Assembly: GCA_951406725.2 (NCBI GenBank)
Contig: OX597815.1
Coordinates: forward strand, 128,588,001 to 128,652,000
Length of the DNA: 64,000 bases
Source of the DNA: Octopus vulgaris
Lineage: Eukaryota
Reading direction: 5' to 3'
The notes under the pieces were generated by a model that worked only from the letters and a program-made list of their open reading frames with translations, was not told the origin of the DNA and ran no database searches. This document shows positions 4,267 through 5,117 of this stretch, one piece after another; within the stretch, counting starts at the first letter, position 1; each line of letters starts with the position of its first letter. The position numbers were made by a program, and so were the translations under genes.

Positions 4267-4543
4267 ATATATATATACATACATATATATATATATATAC
4301 ACATATATATATATATATATATATATATAAATATAAATAAATGTTTAAGTAGTTGACTGAATTATCCTAGTATGGATGATTCAGTTAACCGATACCCGGG
4401 TAGCAAATTTACGTCAGAAAGCACGGTTGAAGCTACATGCCAAGGGCAGAAATCACATGCTTTCTTGTGGAAATTTGTGTGTTTTTTTACTATAGATAAA
4501 TGAAAGAATGGAGTCGAACGACGATTTAACAAAATTCCTTTAT

Positions 4544-4624
4544 TCTCGACATATGTTTCGAAGACTGCATATTCTTAATTCCGAAGGAATGAAGGGTGCA
4601 TTATGCCGTCTTCTCATTAGGAAA
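4544..4624 (-). ncRNA. Mirror-arm hammerhead motif with a core mutation (CUAAUGA)
   Basis: The reverse complement reads tttc CTAATGA gaagac...gtcttc GAAAC atat GTC gaga; the G5>A change is predicted to inactivate it. Confidence 0.65.
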
Positions 4625-4760
4625 GACAAGGAACATATGTCAGCATCATGACGAACAAAAACTTTTAGATGACTGCCCGCACGGAGTCCATAGTGATAAT
4701 GAGTGTGGGCAGTCATCTAAAAGTTTTTGTTCGTCATGATGGTGACATAAGTTCCTTGTC

Positions 4761-4841
4761 TTTCCTGATGAGAAGACGGCATAATGCACCCTTCATTCCT
4801 TCGGAATTAAGAATATGCAGTCTTTGAAACATATGTCGAGA
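4761..4841 (+). ncRNA. Type I hammerhead ribozyme motif (minimal stem III, PLE-type)
   Basis: tttc CTGATGA gaagacggcata...tatgcagtcttt GAAA C atat GTC gaga. Intact CUGAUGA/GAAA core, long stem II, palindromic ACATATGT stem III, GUC cleavage triplet at 4835-4837, 4-bp stem I. Confidence 0.8.
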
Positions 4842-4890
4842 ATAAAGGAATTTTGTTAAATCGTTGTTCGACTCCATTCTTTCATTTATC

Positions 4891-5117
4891 TATATATATA
4901 TATATATATATATATATATATATATATATATATATATATATATATATATATATATATATATATATATATATATATATATATATATATATATATATATATA
5001 TATATATATATATATATATATATATATATATATATATATATATATATATATATATATATATATATATATATATATATATATATATATATATATATATATA
5101 TATATATATAATATATA
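4891..5117. repeat. Near-perfect (TA)n, ~220 bp
   Basis: Uninterrupted TA tract. Confidence 0.99.

What the first reader, a model, noticed from the sequence alone, without database searches (positions are those of the whole stretch)
4491..4894. Young 192-bp-arm hairpin with an intact-core hammerhead ribozyme and its mutated mirror
Seen: + strand tttc-CTGATGA-[GAAGACgGCATA...TATGCaGTCTTT]-GAAA-C-atat-GTC^gaga, then AATAAA. Stem III is the palindrome ACATATGT. The mirror arm has CUAAUGA, and the arms differ at about 6 sites, so the insertion is recent. Known: PLE hammerheads with palindromic minimal stem III are thought to cleave as dimers. Inference: the ~54-nt stem II domain is unusually long. 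In a + strand read-through transcript the ribozyme would be sequestered by the upstream complementary arm, a possible built-in off switch that lets it persist in an intron.
Basis: partly seen in the sequence, partly recalled or inferred. Interest (0 to 1): 0.75.

Follow-up and report, generated by a model that had tools for sequence, protein, structure and literature searches.

The report
Long-stem hammerhead in Penelope-like retroelement
The hairpin is two head-to-head end pieces of an abundant Penelope-like jumping gene; the family carries a predicted self-cutting RNA (hammerhead) with one arm about twice as long as in its relatives, while the hairpin shape is a routine insertion by-product and likely not an off switch.

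Summary
In detail: 192-bp arms with 6 differences and a type I hammerhead core on +. The locus is a short insertion of a high-copy Penelope-like element (PLE) whose RT and GIY-YIG endonuclease resemble the Hydra clade. The family has at least 3,370 exact core matches against 0 for the control.

The hairpin is ordinary PLE anatomy. In 36 of 38 head-to-head pairs, one arm ends at the pLTR end and the other 150 bp later. 5' ends pile up at an initiator-like TCATT (15 of 97), not at the cut site, so the template was likely uncut RNA.

The fold is supported by covariation. Each arm here has a lesion: G10.1-U11.1 on +, G5A on -. The 53-62-nt helix II recurs in sequence-unrelated families, against 10-25 nt in other Hydra-type elements. 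That is the new part.

The off-switch and intron ideas are unsupported, and cleavage is untested. The scan held no look-alike of this sequence, only other PLE hammerhead families.

The parts
4265..4339 (.). Left target microsatellite (TA)n
4341..4490 (-). About 150-bp 'tail' (the element's 5' UTR after the pLTR); its end (E2) is one of two recurrent 3' ends, inferred RT start site 2
4491..4702 (-). Sense copy of the pLTR, from the initiator-like TCATT (A at 4700) to the pLTR end
4548..4620 (-). Hammerhead core of the left arm: G5A (CUAAUGA) but canonical G10.1-C11.1; predicted inactive
   Evidence: effect of G5A recalled from hammerhead biochemistry
4698..4702 (-). Initiator-like TCATT; family 5' ends pile up at its A (inferred RNA 5' end)
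   Evidence: 15 of 97 copies start at this base, 29 of 70 truncated copies within 6 bases
4703..4706 (.). 4-nt microhomology at the head-to-head junction
   Evidence: overlap of -4
4703..4894 (+). Inverted, 5'-truncated pLTR copy ending at the pLTR end (E1, inferred RT start site 1); lacks the TCATT
4752..4764 (+). Helix I 5' strand (proximal UUUC 4761-64, distal UUCCUU 4752-57)
   Evidence: covariation
4765..4771 (+). Core CUGAUGA
4772..4825 (+). 54-nt helix II domain (6 bp + 5 bp + internal loop + 5-bp apical hairpin); G10.1-U11.1 in this copy
4826..4837 (+). GAAA, 2-bp helix III with palindromic AUAU loop, GUC; predicted cut after 4837
4838..4850 (+). Helix I 3' strand (includes the non-conserved AAUAAA 4841-46)
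4887..5126 (.). Right target microsatellite (TA)n

Best explanation
The locus is a short head-to-head insertion of a high-copy Penelope-like retrotransposon in a (TA)n tract, likely made when the element's enzyme primed two cDNAs from two fixed internal sites on an uncut transcript and joined them at their 5' ends. Shown: the family unit is 3.56 kb (pLTR with hammerhead, tail/5' UTR, RT + Asn-rich linker + GIY-YIG ORF, 3' UTR, pLTR). Shown: copies have two 3' ends, E1 (cut+57) and E2 (about cut+205), one per arm; 5' ends cluster at a TCATT 153 nt before the cut site; the hammerhead fold covaries. Inferred: TCATT is the transcription start; E1 and E2 are RT start sites, one for each end of the cut target; copying from the 5' pLTR gives these 200-360-bp arms, and copying from the 3' pLTR gives ORF-bearing copies. 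Inferred: the ribozyme is slow or gated (2-bp helix III; it would need a palindrome-mediated dimer of the two pLTR copies, tertiary docking or the element's protein) and acts outside the copying step, since copied RNA was mostly uncut. At this locus neither read-through strand offers two sense hammerheads, the arm with the TCATT has G5A, and the other arm has a G-U at 10.1-11.1 and would be paired by the upstream arm, so this copy is likely inert.
For: Family: 2,019 first-look candidates, 55 matches listed at 94-100%; 3,370 exact core matches against 0. ORF link: the arm follows an RT/EN ORF on the same strand in most of 32 ORF-selected loci; L050 shows inverted pLTR, pLTR, tail, ORF, pLTR, tail with a 3,560-bp unit; 409 homologues at E<=1e-20, RT and EN motifs aligned. 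Two ends: 55 E1, 62 E2 and 1 other among 118 distinct ends; 36 of 38 head-to-head pairs are E1+E2. 5' pile-up: 15 of 97 at one base, against about 1.3 expected per base. Cut site: at most 1 of 100 listed copies compatible with a start there, in each of two samples. Fold: 90.4% of cells paired and 13 of 28 pairs with two-sided change in 23 sequences, 0 of 500 shuffles as high, slid controls 35-49%. Across 21 clusters, helix I pair 2 is A-U 6, G-C 6, U-A 3, C-G 3. Literature: inverted pLTRs and one-sided tails are standard (PMC8557442, passages; PMC3846280, passages); two internal RT starts, AT-rich targets, uncut RNA as main substrate and protein-assisted cleavage were shown in vitro for an anole PLE (PMC11167929, parts 1-2 of 4).
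Against: No cleavage, transcription start or RT start was measured; all three are read from genomic copy ends. Junctions to (TA)n or with microhomology blur the 5' ends by about 2 bases, and an RT pause could also make a pile-up; about a third of copies (27 of 97) run through the site, as expected for 3' pLTRs. Pfam found 0 families in 3 ORFs, so RT/EN rests on motifs and homologues. Arm-to-arm distance was no larger than the distance to the nearest other copy in only 7 of 16 pairs, so 'one template for both arms' is not shown. Related sequences can beat the shuffle control, and the core patterns fixed C before CUGA, G10.1, C11.1, C15.2 and G16.2 (and RYRY). Proximal helix I has only 0.12 probability in the monomer ensemble. 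Invertebrate retrozyme hammerheads with a 2-bp helix III do cut as monomers (PMC7229834, passages), so dimer dependence is not certain.
Confidence: 0.85

Rival explanations
1. One reading: the upstream arm is a selected off switch that silences an active hammerhead so that the insertion can persist in a host intron.
For: In a + strand read-through RNA the left arm pairs all 73 core bases (MFE -337 kcal/mol). Low-depth contigs of one RNA-guessed run match unique flanks, which is compatible with pre-mRNA or with DNA.
Against: Inverted partners are routine and vary in length (11 of 28, 11 of 30 and 7 of 27 loci; many cover only the tail). 20 of 27 intact-core loci have no inverted arm. On the opposite strand the roles swap. 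Monomer helix III has probability 0.003, so little needs switching off. No exon or GT-AG joint was seen.
Confidence: 0.06
2. The hammerhead is a fast monomer ribozyme whose cut defines the 5' end of the RNA that is copied, as HDV-like ribozymes do for R2; the long helix II supplies the tertiary docking.
For: Extended helix I with an internal loop and a multi-segment helix II both covary. The core is canonical in 62 of 97 copies sampled without regard to the core. 2-bp helix III monomers cut in coral and mussel retrozymes (PMC7229834, passages).
Against: Copies do not start at the cut site (at most 1 of 100, twice) but 153 nt upstream. The loop stays palindromic in families A (AUAU) and B (ACGU) when unconstrained, which a monomer would not need.
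Confidence: 0.12
3. The hairpin arises by self-priming or fold-back on one cDNA (or on an antisense template), or by later gene conversion, rather than by priming at both target ends.
For: Both arms share the private change at 4794; several pairs share variants (0-3 differences in 8 of 16 pairs). Self-priming on an antisense template was proposed for rotifer PLEs (PMC3846280, passage).
Against: A fold-back copy would not be expected to stop at E1 while its template ends at E2, nor give tail-only arms opposite pLTR arms; 36 of 38 pairs follow the E1+E2 rule in both orders of length.
Confidence: 0.15
4. A MITE or foldback DNA transposon with long terminal inverted repeats, the hammerhead look being incidental.
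For: Near-perfect 192-bp inverted arms with a short spacer.
Against: The arms are unequal (one has a 150-bp tail), most copies are single-armed and 5'-truncated, the arm lies 3' of an RT/EN ORF, and the fold covaries.
Confidence: 0.01

Closest known systems
Hydra-clade PLEs, including Hydra-1_Obim (Craig et al. 2021, PMC8557442; sections 11 and 12, passages, supplement tables S1/S2 and sequence excerpts read)
   Same: RT followed by C-terminal GIY-YIG; RW and DKT motifs; CxxC and CxH around the conserved E and N; (TA)n targets; type I hammerhead in the pLTR; inverted 5' copies. By eye the RT motifs match Hydra-1_Obim block by block.
   Different: Helix II domain is 53-62 nt against about 10-24 nt in the 26 Hydra rows of file S2 and 10-25 nt in 31 of 79 metagenome loci. 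Helix III is 2 bp with a palindromic tetraloop, against mostly 3-4 bp. The CxCX5C linker is replaced by an Asn-rich insert (0 of 15 copies). The unit is 3.56 kb against <3 kb. The tail is about 150 bp against 30-40 bp. It is a different family from Hydra-1_Obim (different hammerhead; three short motifs not found in the supplement text).
Minimal/palindromic PLE hammerheads (Cervera and de la Pena 2014, PMC4209133; parts 1-2 of 4 read)
   Same: Type I, in pLTRs, short helix I, G10.1-C11.1, palindromic 15.2-16.2 and loop 3; opposite-strand pairs 100-700 bp apart were already noted.
   Different: Their helix II is 6-8 bp with an unpaired base between 9 and 10.1; here there is no such base, and helix II has three segments over 54 nt.
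PAc Poseidon element of Anolis (Frangieh et al. 2024, PMC11167929; parts 1-2 of 4 read)
   Same: Two internal RT start sites bounding the tail, AT-rich targets, uncut RNA as the main template.
   Different: Different clade; there the hammerhead overlaps the ORF start, here the cut lies 263 nt before the ATG; the tail here is about four times longer; cleavage there was tested (protein-assisted), here not.
Spike-moss PLE-X1 hammerhead (PMC8557442 file S2)
   Same: A PLE hammerhead with a helix II domain of about 53 nt, flagged there as deviating from the canonical structure; a precedent for length.
   Different: Endonuclease-less Chlamys-type plant element, no palindromic tetraloop, listed as a single prediction without covariation data.
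Adineta vaga Penelope elements (Arkhipova et al. 2013, PMC3846280; passages)
   Same: Inverted pLTR with one-sided tail, Inr-like sequence in the pLTR, microhomology junctions, Asn-rich inserts between RT and EN.
   Different: Described there as Penelope families of a rotifer, at low copy number; no 5'-end pile-up in the passages read.

Membership tests
Type I hammerhead ribozyme | Core CUGANGA, GAAA, NUH in type I order | tested here: met
   + arm; - arm has G5A
Type I hammerhead ribozyme | Helices I-III supported by covariation | tested here: met
   (helix III pairs invariant, partly fixed by the search pattern)
Type I hammerhead ribozyme | G10.1-C11.1 pair in this copy's + arm | tested here: not met
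   G-U in the window; G-C in 22 of 23 aligned rows (mostly pattern-selected) and in 78 of 97 copies not selected on the core
Type I hammerhead ribozyme | Match to an Rfam hammerhead model | tested here: not met
   no hit to E=10; likely because of the long helix II (inference)
Type I hammerhead ribozyme | Self-cleavage after N17 | not testable with these tools
   only contigs were on hand; no genomic 5'-end spike at the site
Penelope-like element (EN+) | Single ORF with RT and GIY-YIG endonuclease | tested here: met
   family copies; Pfam silent; the window copy itself has no ORF
Penelope-like element (EN+) | pLTRs in partial-tandem or inverted layout with one-sided tail | tested here: met
   L050; 36 of 38 pairs; the tail is longer than usual
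Penelope-like element (EN+) | Hammerhead in the pLTR | tested here: met
Hydra clade | C-terminal EN, DKT, RWK, CxxC/CxH, no CCHH | tested here: met
   RWK reads RWL
Hydra clade | CxCX5C linker finger | tested here: not met
   absent in 15 of 15 copies scored (21 loci tried); present in the 31 aligned relatives. Filed as Hydra-related, not as a plain member
Hydra clade | (TA)n targeting | tested here: met
Hydra clade | Length under 3 kb | tested here: not met
   3,560-bp unit
Hydra clade | Placement in an RT tree with reference clades | not tested
   reference proteins were only seen in a supplement; compared by eye
PLE min-HHR (Cervera 2014) | Unpaired base between A9 and 10.1; helix II of 6-8 bp | tested here: not met
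PLE min-HHR (Cervera 2014) | Palindromic helix III and loop 3 | tested here: met
   AUAU 33, ACGU 20, GCGC 1, GUAC 1 of 71 motifs (RYRY imposed on part of the set)
Non-LTR retrozyme | Non-coding tandem repeats of 170-400 nt | tested here: not met
   copies are dispersed, single or inverted, and tied to an ORF
MITE / foldback DNA transposon | Equal terminal inverted repeats in all copies, no RT link | tested here: not met

The most novel reading that the evidence does not exclude
The 53-62-nt helix II domain, kept in length and fold while its sequence turned over between unrelated families, is a working module: a handle for the element's own protein or a docking arm that gates cleavage, so that the RNA stays uncut while it is copied from two start sites and is cut only later. 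This would be a new gated hammerhead architecture that Rfam and the usual descriptors miss, in a lineage that also lost the zinc finger thought to guide (TA)n targeting.
Probability: 0.3. Interest if true: 0.62.

Novelty: new variant of a known kind. Interest (0 to 1): 0.38.

Why it matters
The role of hammerheads in PLEs is openly unresolved (PMC8557442, discussion passage). This family gives thousands of genomic footprints that can be read as a mechanism: two fixed 3' ends with one per arm, a defined 5' end at an initiator-like site, and no sign that cut RNA is copied. That extends an in vitro result from one lizard element to another clade. The long helix II shows that descriptor and Rfam searches miss an abundant class of PLE hammerheads. 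The loss of the linker finger with (TA)n targeting kept argues against that finger being required. The single window copy is likely an inert relic.

Tried and rejected
Rfam scan: no hammerhead. Pfam on three ORFs: nothing.

First pair count on alignment A1 used a structure string of mine that was one column out of register (52.7% paired); it was discarded and redone with columns.

Upstream GACAUA as an anti-core or permuted helix III partner (a lead from earlier scan notes on rewired hammerheads): rejected. It is present in 15 of 71 motifs and has pairing probability 0.0. AAUAAA as a poly(A) signal: 15 of 71, and flanks show no poly(A).

Naiad clade: rejected, the endonuclease is C-terminal. 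Family C and D upstream regions gave no clear ORF link, so only families A and B are tied to Hydra-type ORFs.

RNA: no RNA holder listed on record. Only contigs could be laid; they cover the family but cannot show ends or strand. On 8000-17400 there was no GT-AG joint, only scattered low-depth contigs in one run: no verdict on a host gene. The ORF scan of the window showed repeats and no recognisable host exon by eye; small exons would be missed.

The first loose hammerhead scan of the window had a regex fault; the fixed scan found the 4765 motif and one weak chance-like hit at 51148.

Lunse et al. 2017 is not held; I saw it only as cited in PMC6765202, so its supplements may hold long-helix-II cases. 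Paper searches for a prior description found none in the held library. 'Long helix II' in PMC13725137 means 6-8 bp (passages).

Full report
1. The observation. The inverted repeat is real: arms 4491-4682 and 4703-4894, 192 nt, 20-nt spacer, 6 differences. The - arm has G5A. Rfam does not see the motif.

2. What it belongs to. The window lies in a 2.8-Gb genome (G000). The arm has 2,019 first-look candidates. An exact pattern for the core with a 42-68-nt helix II domain matches 3,370 times against 0 for the reversed control. Upstream sequence of near copies led to an endonuclease fragment with 14,924 candidates. In 32 ORF-selected loci the arm usually follows an ORF on the same strand. L050 reads inverted pLTR, pLTR, tail, ORF, 3' UTR, pLTR, tail, with a 3,560-bp unit and the ATG 263 nt after the cut site. 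[quoted passage not shown] It has 409 homologues at E<=1e-20 (best named hit a cephalopod protein, 41%). These traits match the Hydra clade of PLEs (PMC8557442 section 11; Hydra-1_Obim compared by eye). The CxCX5C linker finger, present in the 31 aligned relatives, is replaced by an Asn-rich insert in 15 of 15 copies scored. I therefore call the family Hydra-related.

3. Why a hairpin. The left arm continues about 150 bp beyond the finding as the element's tail and ends at (TA)n 4265-4339; the right arm stops at the pLTR end in (TA)n 4887-5126. Among 118 distinct 3' ends, 55 are at E1 (cut+57), 62 at E2 (about cut+205) and 1 elsewhere. Of 38 head-to-head pairs, 36 have one arm at E1 and the other at E2. 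An inverted pLTR partner was seen in 11 of 28, 11 of 30 and 7 of 27 loci of three samples (in the second and third samples some hits are the two arms of one insertion). Inverted pLTRs with a one-sided tail are standard PLE anatomy. Two internal RT start sites bounding the tail were shown in vitro for an anole PLE. The simplest reading (inferred) is priming at both ends of the cut target, from E1 and E2, with the cDNAs joined by microhomology (4 nt here).

4. The RNA that was copied. I sampled copies on an anchor upstream of the core (534 matches, first 100 listed, 97 distinct). Of these, 27 run through the 56-base window and 70 are truncated in it; 15 start at one base, the A of TCATT (window 4700, - strand), and 29 within six bases. 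An Inr-like site in a pLTR is known from rotifer and fly PLEs, so this is likely the transcription start. Microhomology blurs it by about 2 bases, and an RT pause is not excluded. The cut site shows no such pile-up. In two listings of 100 I picked the truncated rows by eye, aligned 19 and 44 sequences, and found one compatible start in each, both ambiguous. Copied RNA was therefore mostly uncut, as for the anole element.

5. The ribozyme fold. In 23 sequences of family A and its relatives, 90.4% of cells pair, 13 of 28 pairs change on both sides, 0 of 500 shuffles reach that, and slid controls give 35-49%. RNAalifold recovers helices I and II unaided. Relaxed patterns found sequence-unrelated families. 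In 21 clusters at 80% identity, helix I pairs 1-3 hold in 19, 19 and 18, with pair 2 taking all four Watson-Crick forms. Slid controls were 4, 13, 18 at one base and lower at two and three, so pair 3 is not distinguished from the one-base slide. Helix II pairs 2, 3 and 5 hold in 18, 17 and 17. Core-flanking bases were fixed by my patterns, and RYRY. Family B is tied to a related ORF at 36-39% identity; C and D are not yet tied. In copies not chosen for the core, 62 of 97 are fully canonical. Monomer helix III has probability 0.003 and the palindrome self-pairs at -7.0 kcal/mol, which fits the dimer model. Some 2-bp helix III hammerheads do cut as monomers.

6. Is helix II unusual? It is 53-62 nt in 20 of 21 clusters (pattern range 38-68). 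Shorter forms are few: 154 matches at 24-51 nt, by eye mostly internal deletions, and 124 at 6-23 nt, mostly one ordinary short family. Published Hydra hammerheads have about 10-24 nt (26 rows). One spike-moss PLE has about 53 nt. The long domain is thus a real variant with one remote precedent. I found no description of it in six paper searches; the most relevant paper (Lunse 2017) was not held.

7. The off switch. Pairing by the upstream arm is predicted (73 of 73 core bases), but nothing points to selection for it. Arm lengths vary widely, 20 of 27 intact-core loci have no partner, and no host intron was shown (both weak). The arm with the TCATT carries G5A; the other lacks the TCATT and has the wobble. 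The copy is likely inert.

8. Verdict. A new variant of a known kind: a Hydra-related PLE with a long-helix-II palindromic hammerhead. The hairpin is ordinary. The family-level footprints and the long domain are modestly new and testable. Interest 0.38.

Noticed in passing
L040-L069 (G000 family-A ORFs): The Hydra CxCX5C linker finger is replaced by a 25-39% Asn insert in 15 of 15 copies scored, yet insertions still target (TA)n; this argues against the proposed link between that finger and targeting.
   Followed up: partly
G000, listing (e.g. C1:823328): A separate, ordinary short-helix-II hammerhead family (about 14-17 nt, most of 124 matches) with palindromic loop III and GUU site; some copies lie in head-to-head pairs.
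   Followed up: no
L161:663 and 3608: Two identical long-helix-II hammerheads (GUAC loop) 2,945 bp apart with no hit to the family-A ORF; a tandem unit of unknown kind.
   Followed up: partly
L166-L172 (family C), L164-L165 (family D), L163, L174: Further sequence-unrelated long-helix-II hammerheads; family C appears by eye to covary in distal helix I; the parent elements were not identified.
   Followed up: partly
L292-L370: Hydra-type PLEs are common in metagenome contigs (462 candidate stretches); their hammerheads have helix II of 10-25 nt and mostly 3-4-bp helix III.
   Followed up: partly
window 4825, 4865: Two of the three private changes of the + arm are CpG-to-TpG, including C11.1, which suggests methylation decay at this locus (inference).
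   Followed up: no
window 3189-4097, 2383-2596, 45385-45584, 63097-63551: GC-rich 61-68-bp and 98-bp tandem arrays inside a dispersed repeat; the PLE sits in the (TA)n tail next to one of them.
   Followed up: no
window 1858-2175: Fragment resembling the C-terminal end of a LINE ORF; similar to an ORF end in L034 (by eye).
   Followed up: no
window 38482-39182: Cluster of 84-85% inverted SINE-like repeats (I3, I4).
   Followed up: no
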